Below are positions 8,726 through 61,400 of a DNA stretch of 64,000 bases, piece by piece. The notes beneath the pieces are model-generated. The model searched no databases and had not been told where the DNA came from. It was given only the letters and a program-made list of their open reading frames with translations. A program made the translations under genes and the position numbers. The stretch covers positions 1,696,001-1,760,000 of the forward strand of contig OZ219790.1 in assembly GCA_964291215.2 (NCBI GenBank), in the 5' to 3' direction. Numbering within the stretch: position 1 is the stretch's first letter; the number at the start of each line of letters is the position of its first letter. This stretch comes from Alphaproteobacteria bacterium. GTDB taxonomy: Bacteria > Pseudomonadota > Alphaproteobacteria > MPNO01 > UBA830.

Positions 8726-8729
8726 CGTT

Positions 8730-8900: not shown

Positions 8901-9000
8901 AATCTCTCTGCAACCATAGCTCTCCCATAGTCGAGGTTATCCACATTTTCCCGCCCCCAACTGCTGTGGATGATTTCATCATCAAGGGGACAAAACCTAG

Positions 9001-10184
9001 CCCCACTTCCAGTCTGAAGTGCAACACCCGGCCCTCATCGCAGTGAGGGCGTAGCCCGAACGGAGATGAGGGCCGGGTGTTGCGCAAATTTTTCCCCTCT
9101 GCCCCTCTCGATTCCGCCTAGGAACAGCTTCAGTTCCTTCAACATCAAGCTTATGCAACGCCTTTGTCGGCTTCAAGCCACTATTTCCCCGTCGCGCGGC
9201 ATGGACCCTGCTGCACGTTGCGGCTTTGGAACGCAGATGGTCAGGGCGGTTTCACTTCAAGATTACCTCCGTCGGCGATCCCAGGACTTTCCGAGTGTTG
9301 AGCCGATCCTTCTGAACATCTTCGTTGCATGTCGCGCGAAAGTCCGTGCCCTTCGGGAAGTACTCCCGCACCAGGCCGTTGGTGTGCTCATTCAAGCCGC
9401 GCTCCCAGGAATGGAAAGGCGAAGAAGAAATCTGCATCAAGTGCGACACGCCTGTGGTCTGCGAACTCCTTGCCGTTGTGATTGTGTGGACCAATAGCGC
9501 ACCAGAGCCGAGCAGGCGGATCATACCGACCGTGTCTTTCTGTCCACCCAGCAAGGTGTATTTCGTGGCACGAGCAACCAGCGACAGCTCCACTGTGAGC
9601 TTTGCCGATGATGGCTCCCAGTCGCCGATCCGTTCCTTTGCCTCCGCAGGGCGCTCGGAAATGTCCACTCGGCCAGGACCCGGCCAGAATGGCATCCGCC
9701 CTTCCAGTTCGGCTTCTTGCCGCGCCGCCGAAGCTTCAAGACACCCCCGGCTCTCCGATCTTCGGCGATCATGGATACGTTCACGGCCCTCCAGTCGAAA
9801 ACGGCCGCTGCTCGGGGCCCTCCCGCAGCTTTTTCTGAGCTTCAACCCGAGGCGTCAACCGCCAGGAAACAGACGAGGCGGCCCTGCGTTTCTGCCATCC
9901 TTTGCGCCTGCTTGTGACGGTAACCCCGTCCCCCGGTGTTGCGCTTGATCTCCCGGAAAATTGTTGATCGGCCCAGCTGCCGAGCAATCGCACCTTGTGA
10001 AAGACCGCTTTTCTGCCTCAATCTGGCATCGCTCTTCGTAGGTGACGGTAGCCTTTGGACATGAACAAGCTCCCTCCATCTTGTACAGGAACTCTCGCCG
10101 CTGCTGGACAGCTCCGCAACATCATGCGTCTAAAAACACATGGCCACAGCCCATCATGTGTTGCACTTCACTATGGAACGGGGG
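9001..10184 (-). mobile_element. IS30-family element, decayed
   Basis: TYEERCQI, ERIGDWE, SWERGLNEHTNGLVREYFPKGTDF; terminal IRs; 3-bp TSD (TAG at 8998-9000 and 10185-10187). Confidence 0.88.
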
Positions 10185-10448: not shown

Positions 10449-11077
10449 CCGAAGTTCCAGAAAATTTCGGCTGATTTCCACCTCAAGTTATTGATTTGGC
10501 GTGGTTTATCGGATTTTCCATACATCAAAATGTACCCATATAATTGTGGGCCGATTTTTGACAGAGAAAAACATATCAGCTATATATAGTGGCCATGTAT
10601 AGTGGCCATGTATATCGAATCCGTCCCCAACCGCTCCTCACCGCCCGCCATCACCGCACCGAACCTCGGGCCCATGTCTTCCTGTGCATGCTCGCCTGCT
10701 ACGTCGAATGGCATGCGCCAGAAACTGAAGCCCATGTTGTTCGACGACGAGGATGCCGAAGGCGCCAGCGCAGGTCTCGGCAAGCGCCCGGGCCGGCAGC
10801 AAGAGGAGCGTTGACGGTGATCCGGTGCACAGCTTCCGTACCCTGATCGACGATCTCGCCACCCTCACCCGCAACACCGTGGCGCCCCGCCTTGCGGGCG
10901 CCGAAACCCTTCCAGCTCACCACGCGGCCCACGCCGGTCCAGAAAAAGGCCCTCGATCTCCTAGGCGTGAAGCCTTGGTGTACCTTGGGCGTGAAGCCTT
11001 GGTGTACCCAGACCGCTGAAATTTATTGAATGTGATTTCTATCAGGCACTTACGTCTGATCGGCTCTGGAACTTCGG
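10449..11077 (+). mobile_element. Internally deleted IS1634-family element (~630 bp)
   Basis: Perfect 13-bp IR CCGAAGTTCCAGA; start MYIESVPNRSSPPAI joined to C-terminal RAHVFLCMLACYVEWH and VHSFRTLIDDLATLTRN. Confidence 0.8.
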
Positions 11078-11079
11078 GC

Positions 11080-13152
11080 GTAAGCATTCGTTCGTGCGGT
11101 GATGACGATCTGCGCTGAGGATTATTTGGGCGGTTGCAAGAAGGGTGCTGGTAATCGGAATTCGGCTGTGCTATCAGGTCGTGCATGGTCATGTGCATCA
11201 AGGATTTCGTGTCATCATCGGGTGCGGACGCCGCTGGCGACGTGCCGCAGTCGTCGTGTAGTGATTCGGCCACCTGGAAGTCCCTGTACGATCGCGAGCG
11301 CATTCGAGCCGAGGTTGCGGAGGGTCGCTGTGAGGAGCTGCGCCTGCGGGAGGTGGAGGGGCCGCGCGAATTCCCTGAAGGCGATTTTCGAGAGCAATCG
11401 TGAGAAGCTGGTAGCTGCCCGTGCGGAGGTCAGGGAAGTTCGGCGGACGGCGAAGCAGCCTCTTGCGCTGAAGCAGGAGGTTGCGCGTCCGGGCCAGCTT
11501 CTTGCCGAGACCGGCGCGCGGAAGCGGTCGACGGTGGTGTCGCTGCGCATGGAGAATGCCGGCCTGAAGACCGCGATGAGGGTTCTGAAGGGTCGGGGCG
11601 GAGAACGACAAGCTTCGTTCGAACAGGTCGTACGGGCGCAAGAGCGAGAAGAGGCAGCGGGCGTCATCGAAGCGCGGCCAGCAGCGCGGCACTCCTGGCC
11701 GCGGCCGGCGTTCGAGGAGGTGGAGGAGCGGCTGGAGGTGGCGGAGGACGCCTGCTCGTGCTGCGTTGCCAACGGTTCGCACCAGGATCATCGAGATCAA
11801 AAGCGGCGGATTGTCCGCCGGGGCTGTGACTGCCCCGGTTCACCGAGCGAGGTGGCGGCCGGCACCGCATTCGGGTGTGGACGCATGTGCTGCACGAGCG
11901 CGTGCATACGGCCCTTGCGCCGCGTCCAGGGGCTTTCGCCGGAAACGCTGGCCAGCGAGCCGGATGCTGCCCCTGTTCGAGCCGCTTCGGGACGCGATCC
12001 TCGCGCACCGGGGTCTGCGCCATGCCGATGCATCCGGGCCCCGAGGGAGGTCCGAAAGTCGCGCCTGGCTCCGGACATCGGTCAGCCGTGACGCGGTCCT
12101 CTCCCTCGCGCAGCGCCGAGGTCGCGGCGAAGCTGTTCGCGGACGCCCCCATGTATCCGGTCTGCGGCCACCGGCGGCCGGTCGGCGTTCGAGGCTGCGC
12201 AGGCGGCGCCGGAGACTGCGGTCTCCGCGCTGTTTGCGGAAGCGCCGAGGCTTCCTAAAGCGGCGCCGGAAGGCAGGCCGCTGCGCTCAACCATCGCGTG
12301 TTCGTCGACCATGGACAACAATTTCGGGAAAAGGGCTGTCAGGGGCCCGGGCGGAAGCCCGGCTTCGGTTCCGACAGCATGGACGGCTGTCATGTACACG
12401 GTACGGTCGCGAGGAGCGGCCTCGACGTTCTGCGCTGGCGCCTGCGCGGAGAACGTCGGCCCGGCGATCTGTCGCCCTGGTTGCCGTGAGCCCGGAGAGG
12501 CGGCGGAGATTCGCAGCGCCGCCGTGAGGTCGAGGGCGCGACTTCATGGTCGCGGAGATGCGGCTGTTGCGACGATCACGGAGCGAACCCCATCGCCCGC
12601 GCCTTCTGCCGCCGCCGGGGGCCCCCCCGAAGCTGATCACACCGCCGCCCCGAAGACCCTCGACGAGCTCCGCCCGCTGACACTGCCTCGGATACACGCG
12701 CTTGGCGGCGCCGCAGATGCGCTACGCGATCCATGCGGCGAGCCGCTGCTTCTCGACCGCCGCATGGAGCGCGCGCTGCAACACCACGCCCGTGCCCTGC
12801 GAGACCCTGGTCGAGGTCCCGCGCCGCGGCGTCTGCCGGCCGCGTCGGAACAACCAGCGGCCGCTACGACCGACATGACAGAAGCCGAAGAAGGACATCT
12901 GGCCCGCTCCGCAAGGACTGGAAGCGGACCCTCAATCGCTGACCCCTGCAACCGGCACGGGATGGCGCTCAGCTCCTCCTCCGCAGCGCCGGGACAAAAC
13001 CGCGACCAATGCGGAAAACACGGCATCGCGCCAGTGCCCCTCACCGCGCATCCCGGTGCACGAAACCGCTCCGGGTGACGCTCGAACTCCCTGACAAAAG
13101 CCCGTCAAACGGACGAAAACAACAACACCTCACCGCACGAACGAACGCTTAC
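11080..13152 (+). mobile_element. IS66-family element, decayed, with downstream DUF4338-like passenger
   Basis: IRs GTAAGCATTCGTTCGTGCG / CGCACGAACGAACGCTTAC; coiled-coil and zinc-finger remnants, DNNF.ERA.RGP. Confidence 0.78.
12524..12942 (+). pseudogene. DUF4338 (DruA-like) protein pseudogene
   Basis: Fragments GRDFMVAEMRLLR, APKTLDELRPL, NTTPVPCETLVEVPR, VGTTSGRYDRH, KPKKDIW..LRKDWKRTLNR. Confidence 0.65.
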
Positions 13153-13233
13153 CCAACCCGCCCTCCGCAAAACCCGGGTACTGCCTTGAAAAATCAGACA
13201 TAATTTAGCGCAAGATCGCCTTGGTTGTGACCG

Positions 13234-14984
13234 CACGGCGATCCCACGCTAGGTTTGTTGGAAGGGTCGGTTTCGCTTGTTCAGGATGATTCGCATTTTC
13301 GCTGGCTTTTTGTGAAGCGGCGTAGTATCCGTTGTCGTGGGGGCAGCGGATTTTTTTGAGACGACTCCGGAGGGTTTTGAGCTCCGGGATGTGGTTGTGC
13401 GCCTTGCGCGGCCTGATGTCGCTGGAACCGTGTTGTTGACCGTATCTTGGTTTCAAGCAGTTTGCCGGTCGAGGTCTGCGTGTTCACTTGGCGCGGGCGG
13501 TGGATTGGCACTGCAGGCTGGCAGACGGGCGCCCTCAGCTGCGCACCCGTTGGCTGGCGCCGCGAGGAACAGTTCAGGCGGTTGCCGGGAACAACACAAG
13601 GTTTGTTGTTCTTGGTGGTCGTTTCCGGGCCTCGTTTGCGTTGTCGCGGATGGTGCGGCGGCGACTGGGAGGCTGCCGTTGCTTGTTGCGGAGTCGTTTG
13701 TCTTGCCGACGAAGTTCAGCGGCACCATGTACAAGGCGGCGAACTGGGAGTGCGTTGGCAGGAGCTATGCGCGCGCCAGCGGGCGCTATACCGACCGGGG
13801 AGGCGAAGGATCTTTACGTGTTTCCGCTGCGTCGCGATGTCGGCTGCGGGATCGTTCGCCGCTTCCTGTGGCGTGGGAGTCTGCGGGCGCCGCTGGTCGG
13901 CGCAGGAGTTGCGCTCGATTTATCAGCGGCGCTTTCCGGCGCGCGCAGGGGCATCGCCTCGGTGCTGTGCGTGATTTTGCTGGCTTGCGAACCGGCACGG
14001 TGCGGTTGCGGCGGCGCACTACGACGCAGAAGGAGCTGGAGCAGCATGGAAGAACAGGGACAAGCCGGTCTCCACCGTGCACCGGGTGCTGCAGAACACC
14101 GACCCGGGATGGATCGAGGATGCGGCGCGCAGCCGCAGGTCGGCAACGCGGTCGACGGCAAGCGCACCGGCGAGGATCATTACGAGACAGTCTCGCTGGC
14201 CGGTATTCGATCCTCAACTATCACGACGGGGAGATCGCTGCCGTCCACGCCGCGACGGCGCTGGCCGTCTGCTCACCCTCGACGCGCTCCACACCACCCG
14301 CGAGGCTGATCATCGAGACCCATCGCGCGGACTGATGGTCAAGGGCAACGCACCTTCGAGAGAGCATCAACTGGAAGACCGCCAGCGCTACAACGAAAAG
14401 CCCGCGCATGGCCGCCAGCGCACCATCTTCACCCCGCTGGCGAAGATGATCAACTAGCAGATCTTCCGCGTCACCCGGCGCGTCGAATTCAAGAAATCCG
14501 GAAAACGGACAACCGAATACGCCATGACCTCGGCCGAACGCGCCTCGCCGCAACAGCTGCTCGCATGGAATCATGGACACTGGGTAGTCGAGAGCCATCA
14601 TCATGTCCGCGATGCCACCTTCCGCGAAGACGACTCCATGCTCCGAACGCGCCCGCAAACAACGCGATCACCCTTGCAATCATCATCCGCAACAAGCTGC
14701 CCAAACCCTTCAACAGCTTCGTCGACACCACTATGCCAACAAGCGCAAGCAGGTCCTGCACGCAATCACAAGACCAGGCTGACCGCGCCTCTCTCCCCGG
14801 CAGAAACTGCAAGCTTTCGAGCCCGGCAACCAAGGCCTCTCGCTCGCCCCGGATACGCCGACCAATCGCGCCCCGCCCCGTAACAGCGCGTCAGCAAATC
14901 TCAAAATCGCAGCCTCGAACGCGTCGACCCGCGCCACGATCAGGACTCCGATCATATCACATCAACAAGCATGGGATCACCTTG
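13234..14984 (+). mobile_element. ISAs1-family element with N-terminal DUF4338 fusion, copy A (decayed)
   Basis: IRs CACGGCGATCCCACGC / GCATGGGATCACCTTG; 9-bp TSD TTGTGACCG; ESFV..TKFSGTMYKAANWECVG followed by VDGK, TLDALHT, VKGN, HWVVESHHHVRDATFRED. Confidence 0.85.
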
Positions 14985-15093
14985 TTGTGACCGCCGGGGT
15001 GCTTGCCCCGGCCGCGGTTATGGGATAGGATTGCCGCACTGAAGCATGTTCATCTGCCACATGACAGATCGACCACAAAGGGGAAGAAGCGCG

Positions 15094-17433
15094 ATGACAC
15101 AGAATATTTCCCGGACCGGCGGCGCTGACGACGACACCCTGACGGGGGGCGTCGGCAATGACATCCTGAAAGGCGGCCTCGGCGACGACACGCTGACGGG
15201 CGGCGCTGGCGACGACACGCTGACGGGCGGAACCGCAAGCCCGGGTGCCGACGCGGACTTTCTCCTCATGAACCCCGGCAGTTCGGACGATGACACGCTG
15301 GACGGCGGTGCTGGCGACGACACGCTGGACGGCGGTGCTGGCGACGACACGCTGGACGGCGGCACGGACAACGACACGCTCTATGGCGGCGACGGGGACG
15401 ACACGGTGGATGGCGGTGCGGGCAACGACCGTCTGGAAGGCGGCCGGGGCGCCGACAGGCTGACCGGCGGCCGGGGCGCGGACTCGCTCTATGGCGGCAG
15501 TGGCCATGACGTCTTTGCGTTCGCGGTCGGCGACGGGGCCGATTACATCGGCGATTTCGAGGCTGGCGACATCATCGAGATTGCCGGGGTGTCCGGCGGT
15601 TTCGGGGATCTGGTGATCGAGCAGAAGGGCTTCCATACCGTCATCCGCTACGGCGACGGCGACACGATCAAGCTGGAGGGCGTGTCGGCGGCCTCCCTTG
15701 GCGCGGACGACTTCCGGTTCCTTCCCGTCGAGGCAGCCCCGCCGGAGGGCGGCGGCGAGGACGCTCTTGCACAGGGCGCGCCGCCGGAGGGCACGTCCGG
15801 CGACGCCTCGAGCGGCGGGCCTTCTGGCGGCGAGGTGCTGAAGGGTAGCAAGGACGCGGACACGCTCACCGGCGGGGCCGGCGACGACACCCTGCGTGGC
15901 TACGGGGGCGCCGACACGCTGACCGGCGGGGCTGGCGACGACCTCCTCTATGGCGGCCTGGGCGCCGACACGCTGACCGGCGGGGCTGGCGACGATACGC
16001 TGGGGGGCGGCAAGGGCAACGACACGCTGGACGGCGGCGCGGGCGACGACACGCTGCGCGGCGCCAGGGGTGCCGACACCCTGCGCGGCGGCGCGGGCGA
16101 TGACACGCTGGGGGGCGGCAAGGGCGCCGACACCTTCGTGTTCGTGGCGGGAGACGGCCACGACACGATCACCGACTTCGGAGCCGGCGACCGGATTCGC
16201 CTCGACGGCGAGTCCGGCGGATTCGCGGCGCTGGTCATCGAGCAGGACGGCGCCGATACCGTCATTCGCTACGGCGGCGGCGACACGATCACCCTGTCGG
16301 GCGTGTCGGCGGACAGCCTGGATGCGAACGACTTCATCCTGCCTGCTGGCGGTGGCGGCGACGATCACGAAAAGGCCGCTTACGGCGCCAGTACGAGCGA
16401 CGACGACAACGACGGCGGCAATCCCCTCGATAACGACAACGACGGTGGCAACCCGAATGCCGGCAACGATGGCGGCGACCCGAATGCCGGCAACGATGGC
16501 GGCAACCCGAATGCCGGCAACGATGGCGGCGAGGACACGGACACGATCCCGGGCACTTCGGGCGATGATCCGCCAGACATTGAGGCCTGCGGCGTGACCA
16601 TTCGTGGCAGCGCGGACCGCGATTGGCTCTTTGGCACCGCGTGCGACGACACGATCTACGGCAACTCGGGTGACGACAAGCTCTACGGTCGAAAAGGCGA
16701 TGACATAATCTATGGCGGCGGGGGTAACGACCTCCTCCGCGGCAATTCGGGCGACGATGAGCTCTGGGGTGGGGACGGGCACGACTTTCTGACCGGTCGT
16801 AACGGCGACGACACGCTGGAAGGCGGCAAGGGCAACGATTTTCTCTCGGGTGGTTTGGGGGTTGACACGCTCCGGGGCGGGGAGGGCGCCGACCGATTCG
16901 GTTTCTTCGAGAAGGGCTACTACAGCCAGTGGGGATTCAAGGATGGCAGCGACGACACGATCCTCGACTTCGAGGATGGAACGGACCGCCTCGACTTCCA
17001 CTCGGTCGACGGGGAACTCGGCTTCGATGACCTCGAGATCTGGCAGTCCGACAGCGGCGCTGCCATCAACTGGTCCCTGGGGACCATCACCCTGGAGGGG
17101 ATCCAGACGTCGCAACTGACCGAAGCCGATTTTCACTTCGTCGGCCTGCCCGACTGGGCACTCGACGACAGCAAGGGCGACGACACGCTCCGAGGCCGCC
17201 CGGGCTACGACTCGTTCGGATTCGCGAATGGTGGCGACGACACGATCGTCGGCTACGAGGACGGAATAGACCGCATCGACTTCTACACGGAAGACTCGGA
17301 GCTCGACTTCGACGACCTCGTGATCCGGCAGTCCGACAGCGGCGCGGTCATCACCTGGTCCCTGGGGACTGTTACCGTGGTGGGGATTCAGGCGTCGCAA
17401 CTGACCGAGGCCGATTTCGACTTCGTCGGCTGA
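15094..17433 (+). CDS. RTX / hemolysin-type calcium-binding repeat protein (probable T1SS substrate)
   Basis: Dozens of GGxGDDTLx nonapeptides and four DTIxDF..DF modules; no signal peptide; frame intact. Confidence 0.88.
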   Translation: MTQNISRTGGADDDTLTGGVGNDILKGGLGDDTLTGGAGDDTLTGGTASPGADADFLLMNPGSSDDDTLDGGAGDDTLDGGAGDDTLDGGTDNDTLYGGDGDDTVDGGAGNDRLEGGRGADRLTGGRGADSLYGGSGHDVFAFAVGDGADYIGDFEAGDIIEIAGVSGGFGDLVIEQKGFHTVIRYGDGDTIKLEGVSAASLGADDFRFLPVEAAPPEGGGEDALAQGAPPEGTSGDASSGGPSGGEVLKGSKDADTLTGGAGDDTLRGYGGADTLTGGAGDDLLYGGLGADTLTGGAGDDTLGGGKGNDTLDGGAGDDTLRGARGADTLRGGAGDDTLGGGKGADTFVFVAGDGHDTITDFGAGDRIRLDGESGGFAALVIEQDGADTVIRYGGGDTITLSGVSADSLDANDFILPAGGGGDDHEKAAYGASTSDDDNDGGNPLDNDNDGGNPNAGNDGGDPNAGNDGGNPNAGNDGGEDTDTIPGTSGDDPPDIEACGVTIRGSADRDWLFGTACDDTIYGNSGDDKLYGRKGDDIIYGGGGNDLLRGNSGDDELWGGDGHDFLTGRNGDDTLEGGKGNDFLSGGLGVDTLRGGEGADRFGFFEKGYYSQWGFKDGSDDTILDFEDGTDRLDFHSVDGELGFDDLEIWQSDSGAAINWSLGTITLEGIQTSQLTEADFHFVGLPDWALDDSKGDDTLRGRPGYDSFGFANGGDDTIVGYEDGIDRIDFYTEDSELDFDDLVIRQSDSGAVITWSLGTVTVVGIQASQLTEADFDFVG
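16447..16527 (+). repeat. 3 x 27-bp tandem repeat inside the RTX gene (G[ND]PNAGNDG)
   Basis: GGCAACCCGAATGCCGGCAACGATGGC repeated three times, with one substitution. Confidence 0.9.
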
Positions 17434-45489: not shown

Positions 45490-46568
45490 TGTGATGAGAG
45501 CGACTGGTCGGCACAGGAGTTGCGCTCGATTTATCAGCACTTCAGGGCGCTTTCCGGCGCGCGCAGGGGCATCGCCTCGGTGCTGTGCGTGATGGCGCGG
45601 CTTGCGAACCGGCGCGGTGGCGCACTACGACGCAGAAGGAGCTGGAGCAGCGTGGAAGAACAGGGACAAGCCGGTCTCCACCGTGCACCGGGTGCTGCAG
45701 AACACCGACCCGGGATGGATCGAGGATGCGGCGCGCAGCCGCAGGTCGGCAACGACGGCAAGCGCGGCCGCACCGGCGAGGATCATTACGAGACGGTCTC
45801 GCTGGCACGGGGCCGGTATTCGATCCTCAACTGTCACGACGGGGAGATCGCTGCCGTCCACGCCGCGACGGCCGTCTGCTCACCCTCGACGCGCTCCACA
45901 CCACCCGCGAGGCTGATCGTCGAGACCCATCGCGCGGACTGATGGTCAAGGGCAACGCACCTTCGAGACAAGGTGATCCCATGCTTGTTGATGTGATGTG
46001 ATCTGAGTCCTGATCGCGGCGCGGGTCGACGCGTTCGAGGCTGCGATTTTGAGATTTGCTGACGTGCTGTTACGGCGCGGGGCGCGATTGGTCGGCGTAT
46101 CCGGGGCGAGCGAGAGGCCTTGGTTGCCGGGCTCGAAAGCTTGCAGTTTCTGTCGGGGAGAGAGGCGCGGTCAGCCTGGTCTTGTGATTGCGTGCAGGAC
46201 CTGCTTGCGCTTGTTGGCATAGTGGCGTCGACGAAGCTGTTGAAGGGTTTGGGCAGCTTGCGTTTGTTGCGGATGATGATTGCGAGGGTGATCGCGTTGT
46301 TTGCGGGCGCGTTCGGAGCATGGAGTCGTCTTCGCGGAAGGTGGCATCGCGGACATGATGGTGGCTCTCGACTACCCAGTGTCCGCGATTCCATGCGAGC
46401 AGCTGTTGCGGCGAGGCGCGCTCAACCGAGCATCCATGTTTCTTGGCAAGGTTTTTGCGGGTGTCTGTGGTGATGTTTTCTGTGGTTGTCCACAAGCGGT
46501 GTGGGATTTGCTCTGCGAGCGAGGCGGCATGAAGCTTGTGGTCCCGGCGGCGGGTTGCCGTCCATTGG

Positions 46569-46775
46569 TCACGTGAACGCGGCTACCTTGCCGTCCCCGG
46601 GCATGGTAACGTGACCGTCTGGGTTCCAGGTGTCCCAAGGCGGTTCGATCTCCTTGATGTCGACCTCGACGATGATCTGCAGACATTCTCCCCAAGTCGT
46701 GTCGTAGAGGGAGACTGTCGAGACAGTCCCGATCGCGCTCTCGGCAGGGGTGAGGGCCGTGTCTCCTTCGCTCAC
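46569..46775 (-). CDS. Small acidic ORF in the IS110 right end
   Basis: 68 aa; homologs at 52594-52794 (open) and 7828-8020 (frameshifted). Confidence 0.4.
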   Translation of the reverse strand: MSEGDTALTPAESAIGTVSTVSLYDTTWGECLQIIVEVDIKEIEPPWDTWNPDGHVTMPGDGKVAAFT

Positions 46776-47577
46776 TCACCGGTGCTTCAGGCAACGCTGC
46801 TGTCGCAGCAAGGTGTTCGCCAGAGCTTGCGCATCACGGCGACAATCGCGACCTTGTGGGCCTTGCCGGCAGTCTTGAGGCGCACCAGGTCCGCGTTGAA
46901 GCGTGCCGGTTGCGGCCATGAACAGGAGATCGCGTGGCCTTCGGCGCCCGCCACGGATGTGCCGAGCACCGTGGTCGTTGGCCATCGGCGCCACCCCGAT
47001 CAAGGCTGCCGCCTGCCGACGGTCGAGACTGCCGAGTTCGGGCATCCAGAAGGGCCGCGGCAGTCACCGGACCGGGGATCGAGGTCAGGATGGCGTACCT
47101 CTCGGCTTGCTCGGGATCACCGGCGATCACCGCTTTGATTGCCGCGCCGGCAATGCGATCATTGAGATCGGCCGCCGAGGCCCTTGTGACGGTCTCGCCA
47201 TCCACCTCATCTGCCACCTGCTTGGCGTCGACAAGCGCGGCATCAAGAGATCCTCCAGGCTCTTGAGGAAGGCATCCTGAGGAGCCACAGGCTCAAGATC
47301 GCCCAGCCGATCTTGGCTAGCGCGTCGACGCGGTCGGTCTTCGCCAGATGGCCCATCGCCTCGGCGAAGCCCGCAACGGGTTGACGAGAATAACCTCGAA
47401 GCCCCGGTCATGAAGACACTGGTGAACCTTGCGGTGATAGCGGCCTGTCGCCCACCACCCGGCTCACCCCGAGGCCGCGAAGCCACCTGCCCGTGGCGTC
47501 GTTCGCAAAACAATGCCCGCCGCACAGATGTCCAGACTGGCTGACCCCTGCTACTATCTTGACCATCGTCCCTTGCT

Positions 47578-47750
47578 CCTCGCCTTACGATGATACGGGT
47601 TCAAACCCAAGCATCCAGCGAGGGACGTCAAGGGAGGTTGGCCGACCACACTCGGTCGCGGCTCTGTCAAGGTCAAAACGGCAACCTCCGCGGAGATCGT
47701 TTGATCCCCGCACCCCGCTCCCCTGTGCGTGTTCGCTCAGGGGAGCGGAA
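47578..47750 (-). ncRNA. Putative IS110 bridge RNA, copy 2 (boundaries approximate)
   Basis: Same scaffold as copy 1; target guides UGACCU and CGACCGAG match the ISAs1 site TGAC-CT-CGGTCG. Confidence 0.78.
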
Positions 47751-49006
47751 TCTCTCTGCAACCATAGACCGGACGCTCTCCCACAGATCCACATTTTCCC
47801 GCCCCCAACTGCTGTGGATGATTGCATCATCAAGGGGACAAAACCTAGTCATATGGCGTATTCGGTTGTCCGTTTTCCGGATTTCTTGAATTCGACGCGC
47901 CGGGTGACGCGGAAGATCTGCTAGTTGATCATCTTCGCCAGCGGGGTGAAGATGGTGCGCTGGCGGCCATGCGCGGGCTTTTCGTTGTAGCGCTGGCGGT
48001 CTTCCAGTTGATGCTCTCTCGAAGGTGCGTTGCCCTTGACCATCAGTCCGCGCGATGGGTCTCGATGATCAGCCGCGCGGGTGGTGTGGAGCGCGTCGAG
48101 GGTGAGCAGACGGCCGGCAACCGGCGCCGTCGCGGCGTGGACGGCAGCGATCTCCCCGTCGTAATAGTTGAGGATCGAAACCGGCATACCGGTCCCGTGC
48201 CAGCGAGACCGTCTCGTAATGATCCTCGCCGGTGCGGCCGCGGATGCGCTTGCCGTCGACCGCGTTGCCGACTTCCGGGCGCGGCTGCGCGCCACATCCT
48301 CGATCCATCCCGGGTCGGTGTTCTGCAGCACCCGGTGCACGGTCGATTTGGAAACCGGCTTGTCCCTGTTCTTCCATGCTGCTCCAGCTCCTTCTGCGTC
48401 GTAGTGCGCCGCCGCGCCGGTTCGCAAGCCGCGCCATCACGCACAGCACCGAGGCGATGCGGTGCCCCTGCGCACGCCGGAAAGCGCCGCTGATAAATCG
48501 AGCGCAACTCCTGCGCCGACCAGCGGCGCCCGCAACTCCCACGCCACAGGAAGCGGCGAACGATCCCGTAGCCGACGTCACGACGCAGCGGAAACACGTA
48601 AAGATCCTTCGCCTCCCCGGTCGGTATAGCGCCCGCTGGCGCGCGCATAGCTCCTGCCAACGCACTCCCAGTTCGCTGCCTTGTACATGGTGCCGCTGAA
48701 CTTCGTCGGCGAGACAAACGACTCCGCAACAAGTAACGGATGGCGCAGCCTCCCAGTCGCCGCCGCACCATCCGCGACAACGCAAACGAGGCAAGGCCCG
48801 GAAACGACCACCAAGAACAACAAACCTCGTGTTGTTCCCGGCAACCGCCTGAACTGTTCCTCGCGGCGCCAGCCAATCCAACGGGTGCGCAGCTGAGGGC
48901 GCCCGTCTGCCAGCCCGCAGCGCCAATCCACCGCCCGCGCCAAGTGAACACGTAGCGCAGACCTCGACCGGCAAACTGCTTGAAACCAAGAGTATCTACT
49001 CACCCC

Positions 49007-49209
49007 TAGTGTTATGTCCCGTAAATACGCGCATATAATCTTTCAAGCTTGTCGAAGATCGAATCTGCGGTTACGACCCATACGAAAGGGGATGTGGATT
49101 TTCGGTGGGCAACCAGAGGGGAAGTTGGCGGCCGCGGGGCATATCGAAAGGCCTCCTGTTGCGAGAGAGACCGAAAATATATCACACTTATTTACGGGAC
49201 ACTACACTA
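49007..49209. mobile_element. MITE-like element (~200 bp)
   Basis: IRs TAGTGTTATGTCCCGTAAATA / TATTTACGGGACACTACACTA; no transposase. Confidence 0.75.
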
Positions 49210-50046
49210 GGTTGTGGACTCAAATAATTGGTTTGCGATTCTGCGGAGCAAGAATCGGCTGGCAGCCAGTTGCACGGCGGAGAGGAAGTTCCGTGCGGTC
49301 TTGAAGAACCGCTCGACCAGGTTGCGCATCCTATAGATCTCGCGGTCGAGCGGCCGTGGCGATGTCCGGTTGGATTTCGACGGAACGACCGCGGTTGCTC
49401 CTGCCGTCTCGATCAGATGGCGTCGGTGTCGCAGGCCTTGTCGCCGACCACCGTCTCGCCATGCTCGAGGTCGGCGAGAAGCGCCTCCGCCTGCGCGCAG
49501 TCGGCCGCCTGGCCCGGGGTCAGGAACACGGTCTTCACCCTCTCGTTCTCGTCGATGCCAAGATGGACCTTCGTCGTTCGTCCGCCACGGCTCAGCCCGA
49601 TTTGCGAAGGCTCGTCGTCCCGGGACGCCCCAGCACCGTGCTTGTGAACGCGCACCGACGAGGAGTCGACCATGCGCAGATGAACCGGCGGGCCATCGTC
49701 GCTCCCGTCATCATCGCTCGTAAGCCTTTGAAGCTTCTCCATGATCGACGCCCAGGTGCCGTTCTTGCTCCACCGGTTGAAGCGGTTGAAGCAGGTCGTG
49801 TACGGACCATACCGCTCCGGCAGATCGCGCCACGGCGTACCGGTGCGAAGCACGAAGAATATCCCGTTCATGACCCTCCGGTCATGCACCCGCTCCGGGC
49901 CCTGGTGCTTATCGGGAAGCGCCGAGCGGAGAACCTCCCATTCCGCGTCGCGTGTCGGTCGCCGCTCATCCTTCACTCTCCTTGTGGATCGCTTTTGACA
50001 AGACATGACAGATCGTGCAAAAATGTCAACATTTGGGTACACACCC
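49210..50046 (-). mobile_element. IS5-family (IS427-like) element, decayed
   Basis: DRRVMNGIFFVLRTGTPWRDLPERYG..NRFNRW, MVDSSSVRVH, SRGGRTTKVH, GDKA.D; IRs flanked by CTAG. Confidence 0.88.
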
Positions 50047-51334
50047 TAGTTGGGTTCTGATTGGTCGTAGTTCTCGTTGATGATGTCTGCGGCTTTTCCG
50101 TCGAGGGCGATCTGGGTGGCGACGTGATGATTGTAGCCGAGTGCGGCCATGGAGGTGAGGTAGCTTGAGCCCCGGCACCATGCTTTTGCGTGGAGCGGAA
50201 GCATCCGGACACCTTGACCTTTGCCATCCTGATCTTCTGTTCTCCGGCATTGTTGGTGAAGCTGACGTCGGGGTTGTCTATGAAGCGCAGGTTTTCGTGT
50301 TTCACGAGACGTTCGTGCAGGTTGTGCGCGTTTGCTATGCGTCCACGTTTTCCTTTCGTCGGCGGCGGGATGTCGGGCAGTTCCTTGGCGCCCTGATGGT
50401 GCGGTAGCGCTTGCGCCCGGCGTCGTTCAGGGTCTTGGATGCGCTCTTGTTGATCTTGTGGCAGACCTCGCGGAGCAGGCTCTTCATCAGTCGCGCCCAG
50501 CGGTAGCCTCGACGACAAAGGTCAGTTCGCGCAGCAGGTGGCTGCCGCACAGCTGGTGGCTACACTGGCCCATGTACGAGGCCCAGGACGCCCTTGTAAC
50601 ACGGGATGATGCCGATCTCTTGCCTCCCGGCCGCGCTTGCGGTGCGGGAACTTGCACGTCAGGGTCCCACGACATGAAGCCACTTACTGTTGATCCGAAA
50701 TCCGGTCTCGTCGACATGCAGGGCCGGGCGTTGCAGGAGGTGCGCCACGGCGGCCTCCTCCCATGACGCATCGTGAAAGCATAGCCGAGGCCTCGGAGAG
50801 CTTGATGCCGGAGATCGCTTGCACGAACGCGACGGCACGGCGCAGGGACAGCATCTGGGCGACCAGCAGGTTGATGACGAGGGCCTGAATGCCGATGCCG
50901 TACTGCACGGGATGTTGTCGGGGAACCGGCCCTTGGTCCGGGCCTTGCACTTCGGGCATTCCTTGATCTCGGCGCGGCGCTCGACGACCTCGAACACGAT
51001 GTCATAGAGGACGCGGCGCTCCCGATCGACGGGGCCGTTGATGTCGGCGCCGCAGGCGTCGCAGGCCGCGACCGTCTCCTCGACGATGGTCTTGCGCAGG
51101 TTGTCGCCCATCTGCCGGTTCGGCTTCGGGCCCTTGCTCCCGGCACGCTCTTGTCCGTCTGTGACGGCGGCAGACCGGAGTTCCGGCTCGTGCGTGGTCT
51201 TCTCCAGAAGGACGACGATGAGGATGTCGAGCAGGATGACGAGGACGCGGATGACGGCTTTTTCCGCCACCTTGCCGGCAGCGCCGCGATCTTGGCCGCT
51301 TCGAACTCCTCGCGCGCCGCGTTGACCGTCGCCA

Positions 51335-51463
51335 TCACCCGGCCTTGCGCTTCATCAGCGCGCCGCCTCCGAGATGCGTTTCCACATACAGATCATGCGG
51401 GTGCTGGAGCCCCGGAAGTAGCTGGCCCAGCCCGCTCGTCGCCTTCGATCCAAAGTAGCCCAC
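51335..51463 (-). pseudogene. Dam-like DNA methyltransferase N-terminal fragment
   Basis: GYFGSKATSGL..PHDLYVETHLGGGALMKRK; stop overlaps the transposase ATG; second copy at 61230-61358. Confidence 0.7.
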
Positions 51464-51965
51464 TGGCGGTCCCCGTCGTTCTCGATGACCACCACTAAGC
51501 GAATCGGCATGCAGTGTCAAATCTCCACGAAAACCCGTTCGTTGCTCTACCCCGACATCAAGCCGGAACTAGGGGGTGAGCAGTTACAACCAAGATACGG
51601 TCAACAACACGGTTCCAGCGACATCAGGCCGCGCAAGGCGCACAACCACATCCCGGAGCTCAAAACCCTCCGGAGTCGTCTCAAAAAAATCCGCTGCCCC
51701 CACGACAACGGATACTACGCCGCTTCACAAAAAGCCAGCGAAAATGCGAATCATCCTGAACAAGCAAAACCGACCCTTCCAACAAACCTAGCGTGGGATC
51801 GCCGTGCTTGGAGGTCAGGACTTTCTCACGCTGCATTCGATCTTGTCGACTGCTGATGGAGGGAGGTTGTACAACCTGCCGGGTTTTCTAGCTTCGGGGC
51901 CATCCGCGGTCGTCGCCGGCGGCGTTGCCGGTGCGCGGGCGGGTTGTTTTCGGGATGTAGGCGGG

Positions 51966-56226: not shown

Positions 56227-56843
56227 TTAGCCTGGCGCACTCGCTTTCGCTACGGCCCTCCGGTTTGTTCACCGCCCTAGCTGACCGAGAACCGGCTGGG
56301 CACTGCGTCCCAACCACAGCGGCTTCTACTTCCCAGCTCGCTGGCCCAGGGTCGCCCCTGAGCCAGTGGGATATACTACGGTGCCAAACTGACAATTGCG
56401 GGACTTACACCCGCAGGTACAGCAGCTGGACTCGCTGCACGGAACCGAGAAACTCTGGCAGGGATACCAACTCCTCCTCTACTTCGTCGAAAATTACCAA
56501 AAATGCGGAAACTCGATATGCAGAAATCAACGAACTCGATAGTGTCAGATTGAAAGCGCAGGAGCCCGGATCACATGTCGGCAGAAAAACCGGAACCGGA
56601 CCGAAACGACAACAGGGAAGAAACACGATCCTGAAAACAGGACTTTCCCACGCTGTGACTGATGTTTTGGATGACCGCTGAACGGGGCACAAATTTCCGC
56701 ATTCTTGCTAGTATTTTGACATTATTGTATTGATGCATATAGTGACTTCAGTTTCGTCCGGGCATCCTTCCTCGTGAAACGCCGGTCGACGGTGACATCG
56801 GCCGCATTACGCCGTTCCACCCATGCTGCCGTCTCCCGCCGCA

Positions 56844-57962
56844 CAAGGTGATCCCATGCTTGTTGATGTGATGTGATCGGAGTCCTGATCGCGGCGCGGG
56901 GCGCGATTGGTCGGCGTATCCGGGGCGAGCGAGAGGCCTTGGTTGCCGGGCTCGAAAGCTTGCGGTTTCTGTCGGGGAGAGAGGCGCGGTCAGCCTGGTC
57001 TTGTGATTGCGTGCAGGACTTGCTTGCGCTTGTCGGCATAGTGGTGTCGACGAAGCTGTTGAAGGATTTGCGCAGCTTGTTGCGGATGATGACGGCGATT
57101 GCGAGGTTGATCGCGTTGTTTGCGGGCGCGTTCGGAGCATGGAGTCGTCTTCGCGGAAGGTGGCGTCGCGGACATGATGATGGCTCTCAACCACCCGGTG
57201 CCCGCGATTCCATGCGAGCAACTGTTGCGGCGAGGCGCGCTCGACCGAGTGCTGATAAATCGAGCGCAACTCCTGCGCCGACCAGCGGCGCCCGCAACTC
57301 CCACGCCGCAGGAAGCGGCGAACGATCCCGCGTCACGACGCAGCGGAAACACGTAAGGATCCTTCGCCTCCCCGGTCGGCGCCCGCTGGCGCGCGCATAG
57401 CTCCTGCCAACGCACTCCCAGTTCGCCGCCTTGTACATGGTGCCGCTGAACTTCGTCGGCAAGACAAACGACTCCGCAACAAGCAACGGATGGCCGTACG
57501 CAGCCTCCCAGTCGCCACCGAGACGCCGCGCCATCCGCGACAACGCAAACGAGGCCCGGAAACACCCGGCGACCACCAGGAACAACAAACCTCGTGTTGT
57601 TCCCGGCAACCGCCTGAACTGTTCCTCGCGGTGCCAGCCAATCCAACGGGTGCGCAGCTGAGGGCGCCCGTCTGCCAGCCCGCAGCACCAATCCACCGCC
57701 CGCGCCAGGTGAACACGCGGATCTCGACCGGCAAACTGCTTGAAACCAAGATACGGTCAACAACACGGTTCCAGCGACATCAGGCCGCGCAAGGCGCACA
57801 ACCACATCCCGGAGCTCAAAACCCTCCGGAGTCGTCTCAAAAAAATCCGCTGCCCCCACGACAACGGATACTACGCCGCTTCACAAAAAGCCAGCGAAAA
57901 TGCGAATCATCCTGAACAAGCGAAACCGACCCTTCCAACAAACCTAGCGTGGGATCGCCGTG
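56844..57962 (-). mobile_element. DUF4338-ISAs1 copy D (large internal deletion)
   Basis: Both IRs; 9-bp TSD CCCGCCGCA. Confidence 0.85.
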
Positions 57963-58481
57963 CCCGCCGCATGGTGTCACGGTCGGGAATGCGTCGCCGA
58001 AGGCATTGCCGCGACAGCACGCCAATCTCGATCTCGGCCATGTTGAGCTTGCTTCCGTGCTTCTGCGTGTAGCGAAACTCGAACCGCTTTCGCACCCGCC
58101 TCCTCGGGCTCGAAGGCTTCATACAGCGACTGGGCGTGTTCAGATTGTCCGGCACGATCTTCCTGTCGGGGAAATGGTCGTCGGCAAGCTCCCGGATGAA
58201 GTGCGCCCGGTCCCGCGGCGGTCGGTGACTTTCACCGTGCGCCAGTTCTCGTTGGGCGCAAAGGCCAGGAAGAGGTTGGCCGTGCCGTTTCGTTCATAGT
58301 CGACCACCTCCGGCTGACCGGGGGATGCGGGTTTCCTGCTGCCGGCTGGTCTCGCACACCAGCACCTCGTCCCCGGCAAAGTCCCGCTGATAAATGTCAA
58401 GCATGTCCGCCGCCACGAACTGTGCGCTCCGGTGCGGTGGAATGCACCAGTACTGCTTCAGCCACCGCTTGATCTCTTTTT

Positions 58482-61400
58482 GTATCTACTCACCCCTTGT
58501 TGGGTTCTGATTGGCCATAGTGCTCGTTGATGATGTCTGCGGCTTTTCCGTCGAGGGCGATCTGGGTGGCGACGAGTGGGTTGTAGCCGAGTGCGACCAT
58601 GGAGGTGAGGTAGCTTGAGCTCCGGCACCATGCTTTTGCGTGGAGCGGAAGCATCCGGACACCTTGACCTTTGCCATCCTGATCTTCTGTTCTCCGGCAT
58701 TGTTGGTGAAGCTGACGTTGGGGTCGTCTGTGAAGCGCAGGTTTTCGTGTTTCACGAGACGTTCGTGCAGGTTGTGCGCGTTTGCTATGCGTCCACGGTT
58801 TCCTTTCGGCGGCGGCGGGATATCGGGCAGTTCCCTGGCGCCCTGATGGTGCGGTAGCGCTTGCGCCCGGCGTCGTTCAGGGTTTTGGATGCGCTCTTGT
58901 TGACCTTGTGGCAGACCTCGCGGAGCAGGCTCTTCATCAGTCGCGCGGTAGCCTCGACGACAAAGGTCAGTTCGCGCAGCAGGTGGCTACCGCACAGCTG
59001 GTGGCTACACTGGCCCATGTACGAGGCCCAGCAGTCGTGGACCCACGGCGATCCCACGCTAGGTTTGTTGGAAGGGTCGGTTTCGCTTGTTCAGGATGAT
59101 TCGCATTTTCGCTGGCTTTTTGTGAAGCGGCGTAGTATCCGTTGTCGTGGGGGCAGCGGATTTTTTTGAGACGACTCTGGAGGGTTTTGCGCTCCGGGAT
59201 GTGGTTGTGCGCCTTGCGCGGCCTGATGTCGCTGGAACCGTGTTGTTGACCGTATCTTGGTTTCAAGCAGTTTGCCGGTCGAGGTCTGCGCTACGTGTTC
59301 ACCTGGCGCGGGCGGTGGATTGGTGCTGCGGGCTGGCAGACGGACGCCCTCAGCTGCGCACCCGTTGGATTGGCTGGCGCCGCGAGGAACAGTTCAGGCG
59401 GTTGCCGGGAACAACACGAGGTTTGTTGTTCTTGGTGGTCGTTTCCGGGCCTTGCCTCGTTTGCGTTGTCGCGGATGGTGCGGCGGCGACTGGGAGGCTG
59501 CGTACGGCCATCCGTTACTTGTTCCGGAGTCGTTTGTCTCGCCGACGAAGTTCAACGGCACCATGTACAAGGCAGCGAACTGGGAGTGCGTTGGCAGGAG
59601 CTATGCGCGCGCCAGCGGGCGCTATACCGACCGGCACGGGGAGGATCATTACGAGACAGTCTCGCTGATCGAGCACGGGACCGGTATGCCGGTTTCGATC
59701 CTCAACTATAACGACGAGGGCGGGGAGATCGCTGCCGTCCACGCCGCGACGGCGCCGGTTGCCGGCCGTCTGCTCAACCTCGACACGCTCCACACCACCC
59801 GCGCGGCTGATCATCGAGACCCATCGCGCGGACTGATGGTCAAGGGCAACGCACCTTCGAGAGCATCAACTGGAAGACCGCCAGCGCTACAACGAAAAGC
59901 CCGCGCATGGCCGCCAGCGCACCATCTTCACCCCGCTGGCGAAGATGATCAACTAGCAGATCTTCCGCGTCACCCGGCGCGTCGAATTCAAGAAATCCGG
60001 AAAACGGACAACCGAATACGCCATGACCTCGGCCGAACGCGCCTCGCCGCAACAGCTGCTCGCATGGAATCGCGAACACTGGGTAGTCGAGAGCCACCAT
60101 CATGTCCGCGATGCCACCTTCCGCGAAGACGACTCCATGCTCCGAACGCGCCCGCAAACAACGCGATCACCCTCGCAATCATCATCCGCAACAAACGCAA
60201 GCTGCCCAAACCCTTCAACAGCTTCGTCGGCGCCCGCCACCACCATGGCGACAAGCGCAAGCAGGTCCTGCACGCAATCACAAGACCAGGCTGACCGCGC
60301 CTCTCTCCCCGACAGAAACTGCAAGCTTTCGAGCCCGGCAACCAAGGCCTCTCGCTCGCCCCGGATATGCCGACCAATCGCGCCCCGCGCCGCAACAGCG
60401 CGTCAGCAAATCTCAAAATCGCAGCCTCGAACGCGTCGACCCGCGCCGCGATCAGGACTCCGATCACATCAACAAGCATGGGATCACCTTGGTCGTGGAC
60501 CAGAACGCCCTTGTAACACGGGATGATGCCGATCTCTTGCCCGCGCTTGCGGTGCGGGAACTTGCACGTCAGGGTCCCACGACATGGAGCCACTTACTGT
60601 TGATCCGAAATCGTCGACATCGGGCGTTGCAGGAGGTGCGCCACGGCGGCCTCCTCCCATGACGCATCGTGAAAGCATAGCCGAGGCCTCGGAGAGCTTG
60701 ATGCCGGAGATCGCCTGCACAAACGCGACGGCACGGCGCAGGGACAGCATCTGGGCGACCAGCAGGTTGATGACAAGGGCCTGAATGCCGATGCCGTACT
60801 GCACGGGATGTTGTCGGGGAACCGGCCCCGGGCCTTGCACTTCGGACATTCCTTGATCTCGGCGCGGCGCTCGACGATCTCGAACACGATGTCGTGCGGC
60901 GCTCCCGATCGACGGGGCCGTCGATGTCGGCGCCGCAGGCGTCGCAGGCCGCGACCGTTTCCTCGACGATGGTCTTGCGCAGGTTGTCGCCCATCTGCCG
61001 GTTCGGCTTCGGGCCCTTGCCGTTGCTTCCGGCACGCTCTCGTCCTTGTCCGTCTGTGACGGCGGCAGACCGGAGTTCCGGCTCGTGCGTAGTCTTCTCC
61101 AGAAGGACGACGATGAGGATGTCGAGCAGGATGACGAAGACGCGGATCACGGCCTCTTCCGCCACCTCGCCGGCAGCGCGACGATCTTGGCCGCTTCGAA
61201 CTCCTCGCGCGCCGCGTTGACCGTCGCCATCACCCGGCCTTGCGCTTCATCGGCGCGCCGCCTCCGAGATGCGTTTCCACATACAGATCATGCGGAGGCT
61301 GGAGCCCCGGAAGCAGCTGGCACAGCCCGCTCGTCGCCTTCGATCCAAAGTAGCCCACTGGCGGTCCTCGTCGTTCTCAATGACCACCACTAAGCGAATC

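What the first reader, a model, noticed from the sequence alone, without database searches (positions are those of the whole stretch)
12524..14984. DUF4338/DruA-like domain recruited by two unrelated IS families
Seen: five ISAs1 copies exist, and four retain an N-terminal region WIG..GWQ.GA..RWIGW..EQFRRL..NNTRFVVL..LASFALSR..DWEAAYGHPLLVAESFV..KFSGTMYKAANW.CVG ahead of the DDE transposase. A divergent free-standing gene of the same type (12524-12942) lies inside the IS66 at 11080-13152. Established: these motifs match DUF4338, the family of Druantia DruA, and the GT.Y.A.NW signature resembles Mom-type GNAT DNA-modifying enzymes. No other Druantia genes are in the window. Inference: a transposon-borne DNA-modification module that could protect the element from restriction or regulate transposition.
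Basis: partly seen in the sequence, partly recalled or inferred. Interest (0 to 1): 0.75.

Follow-up and report, generated by a model that had tools for sequence, protein, structure and literature searches.

The report
Mom-like enzyme shared by insertion sequences
Two broken jumping genes of unrelated families in this window each carry the remains of the same extra gene; its intact relatives ride on five families of bacterial jumping genes and are predicted to fold like the phage DNA-marking enzyme Mom, so they likely put a chemical mark on DNA that would help the elements spread.

Summary
Confirmed, and wider than reported. The IS66 (11080-13152) and ISAs1 (13234-14984) both carry remnants of a Pfam DruA/DUF4338 domain, but every window copy is a pseudogene. 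The IS66 gene is co-oriented and overlaps the tnpC stop (GTGA). The genome holds about 220 remnants in IS66, ISAs1 and IS4 lineages; seven domains keep an open frame. Elsewhere the domain sits in intact, TSD-flanked IS66 elements, ISAs1 and IS50-type fusions, beside ISKra4, and in one IS630 fusion. It is under purifying selection (dN/dS 0.08-0.30) and forms one lineage per IS arrangement. An AlphaFold model is a GNAT whose best solved match is phage Mu Mom (Z 14.7, next 12.4), and Mom's active-site residues have conserved counterparts. It is not Druantia DruA (at most 27 versus 268-967 bits). Best reading: a cis-acting adenine-marking enzyme that shields the moving element (0.4; DNA marking of any kind about 0.7). 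No activity was tested. This scan found the same module before on other DNA (29 findings, at least 23 genomes). My paper searches found no description of it.

The parts
11080..13152 (+). Decayed IS66-family element of the tnpC-only type with a downstream Mom-like gene; terminal inverted repeats at 11080-11102 and 13130-13152
   Evidence: intact relatives L060 and L064 hit PF03050 plus PF14236
11263..12527 (+). tnpC remnant, frameshifted; its stop TGA overlaps the GTG start of the next gene
   Evidence: tblastn with intact L060 TnpC; 47 indels in left end plus tnpC versus L060
12524..12942 (+). Pseudogene of the HTH-like + Mom-like GNAT (PF14236) gene; about half deleted, with an internal stop
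13234..14984 (+). Decayed ISAs1-family element; 10-bp target duplication at 13224-13233 and 14985-14993 (one base short on the right)
13340..13840 (+). Remnant of the N-terminal Mom-like GNAT domain of the ISAs1 fusion transposase; start codon and His-His deleted
13900..14782 (+). Remnant of the DDE_Tnp_1_assoc and DDE_Tnp_1 part of the same fusion
45968..51807 (-). Second ISAs1 copy with GNAT remnant (48554-48991, 51588-51667), split by other insertions
56843..57963 (-). Third ISAs1 copy with GNAT remnant (57316-57823); internal deletion
59040..60491 (+). Fourth ISAs1 copy with GNAT remnant (59183-59653); internal deletion
45504..45968 (+). ISAs1 middle piece without the GNAT region; with the right end at 52934-53403 it may be the fifth copy

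Best explanation
The window holds dead copies of an accessory gene that is built into several unrelated insertion-sequence families; its intact form is predicted to be a Mom-type GNAT enzyme that likely attaches an acyl or aminoacyl group to adenine in DNA at or near the element, which would shield the moving copy from restriction and other host nucleases. SHOWN: the domain lies inside IS ends, coupled to or fused with the transposase; it is inherited with each transposase lineage, is under purifying selection, and is distinct from Druantia DruA. PREDICTED: GNAT fold closest to Mom, with counterparts of Mom H58, Y59, R111, N121/S124, D149, R151 and Y159. INFERRED: (a) the substrate is DNA adenine and the donor is a charged tRNA, by analogy with Mom; (b) the action is local, aimed by the N-terminal HTH-like domain (IS66, IS4, ISKra4 and IS630 types) or by the fused transposase (ISAs1 type), because unrestrained Mom kills E. 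coli whereas genomes carry many intact copies; (c) the benefit is survival of the excised or newly transferred element.
For: Fold: model pLDDT 95; of 48,161 chains the top match is Mom 8bv8, Z 14.7, rmsd 3.3, 165 aligned, next GNAT 12.4; Foldseek ranks Mom second by E-value but with the highest query TM-score among the rows shown, 0.45. Weak sequence hits to Mom-like families: phrog_1384 for 3 of 4 proteins, E 5e-6 to 2e-4; PF25680 for 1 of 12 non-Mom proteins, E 0.0095. Conservation in 120 sequences: H129 120, Y130 104, R191 120, S205 119, E231 119, D/E235 112, R238 104, Y244 113; profile alignment places H129/Y130/S205/E235/R238/Y244 on Mom H58/Y59/S124/D149/R151/Y159; these Mom residues are the active site in PMC13219725 section 13. 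IS anatomy: 17 of 76 loci, from 5 genomes, show TIRs and an 8-bp target duplication around tnpC plus this gene; start/stop overlap in 9 of 9 loci printed. Selection: dN/dS 0.08-0.30 in 12 of 12 pairs. Tree of 57 domains: 6 label changes, the minimum, versus 30.2 shuffled. Cells carrying Druantia type I, which has a DUF4338 gene and no methylase, show an m6A-like PacBio signal of unknown origin (10.1101/2024.04.14.589459 section 8 and discussion). Mom overexpression is lethal (10.1101/861617), while one genome gave 23 loci with the gene in open frame.
Against: No activity was measured. The profile-profile match to Mom is not significant (probability 4%, E 0.0095), and in it R191 is not aligned on R111; that pair rests on motif and spacing by eye. 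Mom leads generic GNATs by only 2.3 Z units. The IS domain lacks Mom's HTH-like insertion, which is essential for Mom. The N-terminal domain matches HTH folds only at Z 5 or less, which is inconclusive. IS50/Tn5, ISAs1 and IS66 move without such a domain (own knowledge), so it is accessory. In this genome all seven open-frame GNAT domains sit with damaged or missing transposase cores, which fits action in trans or a host benefit at least as well as cis protection. The one true DruA aligned does not clearly keep R111/S124 counterparts, which weakens the link to the Druantia signal.
Confidence: 0.4

Rival explanations
1. The enzyme acylates a protein or RNA rather than DNA, for example tagging the transposase or a host factor to tune transposition, or acting as a mild toxin.
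For: Most GNATs in the match lists are protein, RNA or small-molecule acetyltransferases at Z 11-12. PMC10853773 calls DUF4338 a GNAT and proposes protein-targeting co-effector roles when it is fused to DndF. Fusion to the transposase would also suit a protein substrate.
Against: The best structural match and the conserved polar residues are Mom-like, including Asn where canonical GNATs have the Gly of the CoA loop (N202 in 73 of 120; Mom N121 invariant; canonical motif recalled). No antitoxin gene lies in the two-gene elements, and 23 open-frame copies share one genome.
Confidence: 0.19
2. The enzyme marks DNA genome-wide, as a self mark: the element protects its host chromosome and any DNA leaving the cell, and hosts may keep the gene after the transposase dies.
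For: Druantia type I hosts show a genome-wide m6A-like motif with no methylase in the system. In this genome four IS66-type genes are intact beside broken or absent tnpC. The two open-frame ISAs1 fusions have 0 indels in the first 326-337 residues and 6 and 9 in-frame deletions in the DDE part.
Against: Shorter targets and my selection by domain score favour intact domains. L020 keeps an open IS4 transposase frame with about 10 in-frame deletions although its GNAT is broken. Sister copies share the DDE deletions, so those lineages multiplied with them or were converted.
Confidence: 0.17
3. The enzyme marks the element's own ends or its targets to control transposition (timing, copy number, target immunity), as Dam methylation does for IS10 and IS50.
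For: Tight coupling to the transposase and a DNA-binding-like partner domain in every arrangement. Retention of GNAT plus end-binding domain in copies with eroded DDE cores would suit a repressor in trans. The Dam precedent is recalled.
Against: One enzyme clade serves transposases with unrelated ends and chemistries, which is easier to explain by a shared outside pressure such as restriction. Many element families in this genome expanded to tens of copies.
Confidence: 0.16
4. The domain is a non-catalytic DNA-binding or scaffolding module, or neutral cargo from a Druantia gene.
For: The sequence link to Mom is weak and the Pfam family is named after DruA.
Against: Invariant polar residues in the cleft positions, dN/dS at most 0.30, almost no indels across 9 ISAs1 fusions, PADLOC DruA scores of at most 27 bits versus 268-967 for DruA-type proteins.
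Confidence: 0.08

Closest known systems
Phage Mu Mom (PF25680, PDB 8bv8; PMC13219725)
   Same: GNAT fold and best structural match; order and spacing of His-Tyr, Arg, Asn-x-x-Ser, acidic-x-Arg and Tyr-x-Ala-x-x-aromatic motifs; carried by a DDE transposable element (Mu is a transposing phage; own knowledge).
   Different: 14-16% identity; no PF25680 membership; lacks Mom's essential HTH-like insertion; has a DruA-type helical insertion (RDxxIGW) and an N-terminal HTH-like domain or a transposase fusion; found in insertion sequences, with no tblastn match in 50,697 phage records.
Druantia type I DruA (PF14236, PADLOC PDLC00001/PDLC00002)
   Same: Same Pfam family; shares the N-terminal half of the GNAT, including the RD..W insertion.
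   Different: IS-borne proteins score at most 27 bits on DruA models versus 268-967; shorter core (profile positions about 45-227 of 297); sits inside IS ends, not in a druABCDE operon; keeps Arg and Ser that one aligned DruA does not clearly keep.
IS66 (tnpC-only type), ISAs1, IS4/IS50, ISKra4 and IS630 insertion sequences
   Same: Ordinary DDE transposases, terminal inverted repeats and family-typical target duplications (8 bp IS66, 10 bp ISAs1).
   Different: An extra 190-290 residue enzyme-like module, as an overlapping gene or a fusion; I found no paper describing it.
Fungal DNA transposons carrying TET/JBP dioxygenases (PMC12730594, abstract and outline seen)
   Same: One DNA-modifying enzyme family captured by many unrelated transposon lineages, with transfers between them, proposed to help escape host defence.
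   Different: Eukaryotic, other chemistry (5mC oxidation), no homology; an analogy only.

Membership tests
Pfam PF14236 (DruA/DUF4338) | Score above the gathering cut-off (27 bits) | tested here: met
   Open-frame relatives of both window genes score 74-130 bits; the broken window ORFs themselves do not hit
Druantia type I | DruA-grade match to PADLOC DruA models | tested here: not met
   At most 27 bits for the IS-borne proteins (4, 13; four gave no hit) and at most 26 bits in the genome, versus 268-967 for five DruA-type proteins
Druantia type I | Operon with druB-E, including the DruE helicase | tested here: not met
   The genes lie between IS ends next to transposases. The genome's single DUF1998/MZB hit is on the other contig and was not examined further. 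druB-D models were not run
GNAT superfamily | GNAT fold | tested here: met
   Predicted model; 192 chains at Z 8 or more, the 50 rows shown are GNAT-type acyltransferases or complexes holding one
Mom family (PF25680) | Score above the cut-off of the Mom profile | tested here: not met
   Best 16 bits versus cut-off 27.1; profile-profile probability 4%
Mom family (PF25680) | Active-site residues H58, Y59, R111, S124, D149, R151, Y159 | tested here: met
   Counterparts conserved in 104-120 of 120 sequences; six placed by alignment, R111 by motif and spacing only; the D149 position is Ser in the window's ISAs1 lineage
Mom family (PF25680) | HTH-like insertion (residues about 175-209) needed for activity | tested here: not met
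   Gap of 23 residues at that place; a short basic loop instead
Mom family (PF25680) | Gly-tRNA-dependent modification of adenine N6 in dsDNA | not testable with these tools
   Needs LC-MS and in vitro assay
IS66 | TnpC DDE transposase, GTAA-starting inverted repeats, 8-bp target duplication | tested here: met
   PF03050 178-182 bits in intact relatives; repeats in the window; 8-bp duplication in 17 related loci but not at the window copy
ISAs1 | DDE_Tnp_1_assoc plus DDE_Tnp_1, NF033564, short inverted repeats, about 10-bp target duplication | tested here: met
   NF033564 103 bits, cut-off 70, for the nearest open-frame relative; duplications at 10 of 18 full-length copies including the window's
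Helix-turn-helix DNA-binding domains | HTH or winged-helix fold of the N-terminal 74 residues | tested here: inconclusive
   Three-helix model, pLDDT 96; best Z 5.0, lists rich in HTH domains, no Foldseek hit under E 0.8

The most novel reading that the evidence does not exclude
Bacterial insertion sequences of five families encode their own tRNA-dependent DNA hypermodification enzyme that marks the element and licenses its passage through restriction barriers. This would be the first DNA-modifying activity native to simple insertion sequences, a bacterial parallel of TET-carrying fungal transposons. The same chemistry could explain the unassigned adenine mark of Druantia type I, and hosts may keep GNAT plus DNA-binding domain after the transposase decays.
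Probability: 0.4. Interest if true: 0.85.

Novelty: new variant of a known kind. Interest (0 to 1): 0.62.

Why it matters
If true, simple insertion sequences carry a chemical counter-defence or control layer that textbook models lack, and a very large family (10,059 clusters at 50% identity) becomes a source of new DNA-modifying enzymes with a ready assay borrowed from Mom. It gives a testable candidate for the unexplained adenine mark in Druantia type I cells. In practice, Pfam DruA hits mostly flag transposons, not defence systems: 5 of 28 loci from other genomes were DruA-type, and this genome has 34 hits over the cut-off with no DruA-grade gene.

Tried and rejected
Direct Pfam scan of 20 window ORFs: no PF14236 hit, because of frameshifts. 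Sequence searches of the PDB found only the Tn5 transposase part and nothing for the GNAT. tblastn against 50,697 phage records: no match. ESM Atlas gave no answer. IS481 as a carrier family rejected: P0149 is an ISAs1-type fusion interrupted by IS481; it was kept in the tree and explains the second ISAs1 label change. IS1634 neighbours (L049, L057) not counted as carriers. 'Divergently oriented gene' rejected. Assembly artefact as cause of the breaks rejected: contigs of three runs (one study, which may include the source sample) match deleted stretches without gaps, for example 13715-13834 and 14002-14103, and deletions are shared between copies. A sequence motif at the deletion sites: none seen by eye. 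The idea that the GNAT causes the 5-8 bp deletions is unsupported: three other repeated elements in the window, none with a GNAT remnant, show the same sizes. No RNA holder listed. The fold of the N-terminal domain stayed inconclusive. No complex prediction was run. The tree has no root, so donor and order of transfers were not tested; the DruA-type protein L031 was left out of it. Two papers of Iyer, Aravind and colleagues (2009, 2013) that discuss Mom families were not held, and ISfinder could not be searched; either may already note the association. Supplements were not read.
Full report
OBSERVATION. The window is G000:C1:1696001-1760000 of a 6.15-Mb genome. An IS66 spans 11080-13152 and an ISAs1 13234-14984, the latter with a 10-bp target duplication. 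None of 20 window ORFs hits PF14236. The family search of the genome gave 44 matches, 34 over the cut-off, none in 14 control genomes. Open-frame relatives of both window genes score 74-130 bits and align to the window. The IS66 gene starts at a GTG (12524) that overlaps the tnpC stop and runs on the same strand. All window copies are pseudogenes. The ISAs1 copy has 42 deletions, including the start codon (shared by 16 of 18 full-length copies) and the conserved His (17 of 18). The IS66 gene has 20 indels and lacks the Arg/Ser core.

THE GENOME. DNA and protein searches group into 220 loci: 100 ISAs1-type, 60 IS66-type and 60 IS4-type. These are not copy numbers, since split copies count twice. 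The third family is an IS50-group IS4 transposase with the domain at its N-terminus (NF033590, 280 bits). Seven domains are near full length in an open frame: four IS66-type genes, two ISAs1 fusions and one IS4 fusion. No intact tnpC of the cognate lineages was found. No DruA-grade gene is present (best 26 bits).

ELSEWHERE. A profile of six domains finds 10,059 clusters at 50% identity, 1,846 at E 1e-30 or better. In a sample of the phylum, 24 of 400 other genomes have a match. Of 28 loci fetched from them, 5 are DruA-type defence proteins. Of the other 23, 14 are fused or adjacent to a transposase by NCBIfam (ISKra4 3, IS4 3, IS66 3, ISAs1 5; several partial and under the cut-off), 2 look ISAs1-like by eye, 2 lie beside IS1634 and 5 are unassigned fragments or contig ends. 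I scanned 51 of the 150 listed representatives, the longer ones: 15 IS4, 11 ISAs1, 3 IS66, 1 IS630, 1 IS481 and 20 without a hit at 1e-8. The IS481 case is an interrupted ISAs1 and was dropped; the IS630 fusion rests on one protein. Relatives of the window's IS66 gene gave 76 loci whose record titles name Alpha- and Gammaproteobacteria, Thermodesulfobacteriota, Bryobacterales and Longimicrobiales. Seventeen of them, from five genomes, show inverted repeats and an 8-bp duplication around tnpC plus the gene; my end search covered only one type of end. A search with the ISAs1 transposase part alone returned 120 listed proteins, 92 with PF14236 on record and 103 with all or part of the domain by my profile. 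The other 17 align only from the middle of the fusion and were not checked at DNA level. The domain is thus a fixed part of this ISAs1 branch.

EVOLUTION. dN/dS of the IS66-type gene is 0.08-0.30 in 12 of 12 pairs (Nei-Gojobori; high GC may bias it). Among 80 full-length ISAs1 fusions the domain is as conserved as the transposase (mean column conservation 0.71 versus 0.66). An unrooted tree of 57 domains needs 6 label changes for 7 groups, the minimum, against 30.2 for shuffled labels. IS4, IS66-downstream, IS66-upstream and ISKra4 types are each one side of a branch, and the ISAs1 type is split only by the IS481-interrupted member. The module has therefore moved between IS families a few times and then stayed with each; direction is not shown. 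An N-terminal 74-residue three-helix domain is present in the IS66, IS4, ISKra4 and IS630 types and was not detected in any ISAs1 fusion tested. Its matches are HTH-rich but weak (Z up to 5.0).

FOLD AND ACTIVE SITE. The model of P0004 (pLDDT 95) is a GNAT. Among 48,161 chains Mom (8bv8) is first with Z 14.7, rmsd 3.3 and 165 residues; the next is 12.4. Foldseek puts Mom second by E-value, with the best TM-score shown. Among viral models a protein named Mom is ninth, behind mostly unnamed phage proteins. PMC13219725 (abstract, section 13 and passages read) shows that Mom moves glycine from Gly-tRNA to adenine N6 and names H58, Y59, R111, S124, D149, R151 and Y159. In 120 IS-type sequences H129 and R191 are invariant; S205 and E231 occur in 119, Y244 in 113, D/E235 in 112, and Y130 and R238 in 104. 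Profile alignment lines six of these up with the Mom residues but is itself weak (4%, E 0.0095); R191 matches R111 only by motif and spacing, and Mom's essential HTH-like insertion is missing. IS-borne proteins score at most 27 bits on PADLOC DruA models versus 268-967 for DruA-type proteins. One DruA aligned shares the front half but not clearly the Arg and Ser. So it works like Mom by prediction, belongs to the broad PF14236 family, and is a member of neither the Mom family nor Druantia.

MECHANISM. I commit to a Mom-type DNA adenine acyl- or aminoacyl-transferase acting near the element to shield it (0.4), with DNA marking of any kind at about 0.7. Local action is inferred from the coupling to the transposase, the DNA-binding-like partner domain, and the lethality of unrestrained Mom (10.1101/861617, passages) against 23 open-frame loci in one genome. 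Outside support for DNA marking by this family: cells with Druantia type I show an m6A-like PacBio signal in CAGCTGNC although the system has no methylase (10.1101/2024.04.14.589459, section 8 and passages); the link to DruA is my inference. Against a purely cis role: in this genome every open-frame GNAT sits with a damaged DDE core. L013 has 0 indels in its first 337 residues and 6 in-frame deletions after; L010 has 0 in 326 and 9 after. This may show a role in trans or a host benefit, or only that the GNAT tolerates no deletions while the lineage was moving. L020, with an open transposase frame and a broken GNAT, and my selection of high-scoring domains both argue for caution. Rivals: protein or RNA acylation 0.19, genome-wide self mark 0.17, control of ends 0.16, non-catalytic 0.08.

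WHAT IS IN PRINT. Searches for DUF4338 with transposase (2 papers), DUF4338/PF14236/DruA (26, of which 24 listed), DruA with Mom and acetyltransferase, Mom with GNAT and transposase, IS families with passenger and acetyltransferase, Druantia mechanism and transposon with momylation gave no title or abstract start that describes the module; most hits were seen as listings only. PMC10853773 calls DUF4338 a GNAT in DndF fusions (passages). PMC7824862 covers phage and bacterial momylation systems (passages). The Phold preprint notes DruA-like proteins in cyanophages (passages). PMC7251935 lists DruA as of unknown function (passages). PMC12458937 and 10.64898/2026.05.12.722862 have no occurrence of GNAT or acetyltransferase. 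PMC12730594 gives the fungal TET-transposon analogy (abstract and outline). The Iyer 2009 and 2013 papers were not held, and ISfinder and supplements were not seen. This scan had already noted the module in 29 findings from at least 23 other genomes; my reading was recorded before that look-up, and those notes are not counted as support.

VERDICT. A real, widespread and apparently undescribed accessory module of insertion sequences, seen here only as fossils. New variant of a known kind; interest 0.62. This window adds three carrier families in one genome, the retention of GNAT plus DNA-binding part beside eroded transposase cores, a link to the unassigned Druantia mark, and an unexplained 5-8 bp deletion signature.

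Noticed in passing
window 13234-14984, 11080-13152, 9001-10184, 7685-9000, 50038-51587 and sister copies genome-wide: IS copies decay by dense short deletions. Window ISAs1: 42 deletions at about 5% base divergence from L013; across 18 copies most are 5-8 bp (mode 7), with modest microhomology, shared by up to 17 of 18 copies that have different flanks. Deletions and SNPs are equally mosaic, which points to amplification of an already broken founder plus gene conversion. Cause unexplained. One paper search gave only a general pseudogene study (PMC6054270, listing only).
   Followed up: partly
L013:1414-3147, L010:1447-3204, L008:1174-3459, G000:C2:2636174-2638636 (L020): Open-frame fusion transposases carry only in-frame deletions, all in the DDE part (6 in L013, 9 in L010, 2 clear ones in L008, about 10 in L020). 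L013 and L010 also have Trp to Arg beside the catalytic Glu. Random placement would put all outside the first 330 residues with probability 0.007 and 0.0008.
   Followed up: partly
joints 13152 to 11078 and 14984 to 13233 in run X3: Contigs join the right end to the left end of both elements with 6 and 8 letters between; these could be circle junctions or tandem copies. The genome has one IS66 right-to-left junction with another spacer and none for ISAs1.
   Followed up: partly
Druantia type I literature; L031:1333-2535: DruA is a plain candidate for the m6A-like PacBio mark that Ojima et al. could not assign, although the one DruA aligned lacks clear R111/S124 counterparts. That DruA-type gene lies beside a TniQ gene, suggesting a Tn7-like carrier.
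   Followed up: partly
L002:982-2067 and L001: An intact IS66-type GNAT gene has lost nearly all tnpC and sits among mobile-island genes (an XRE plus peptidase-like ORF, by eye); L001 has lost much of tnpC and borders a PIN-like ORF (by eye).
   Followed up: no
window 15046-17433: 795-residue protein with many GGxGxDxL repeats, typical of RTX calcium-binding proteins (label recalled), starting 60 bp after the ISAs1 end.
   Followed up: no
window 9001-10184 and about 10620-11079: An IS30-like copy and an IS1634-like right-end remnant (labels by eye) abut the IS66, forming a nest of four elements in 6 kb.
   Followed up: no
L047, L058: DruA-type domains fused to DndF/SspF-like P-loop domains, as described in PMC10853773.
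   Followed up: no
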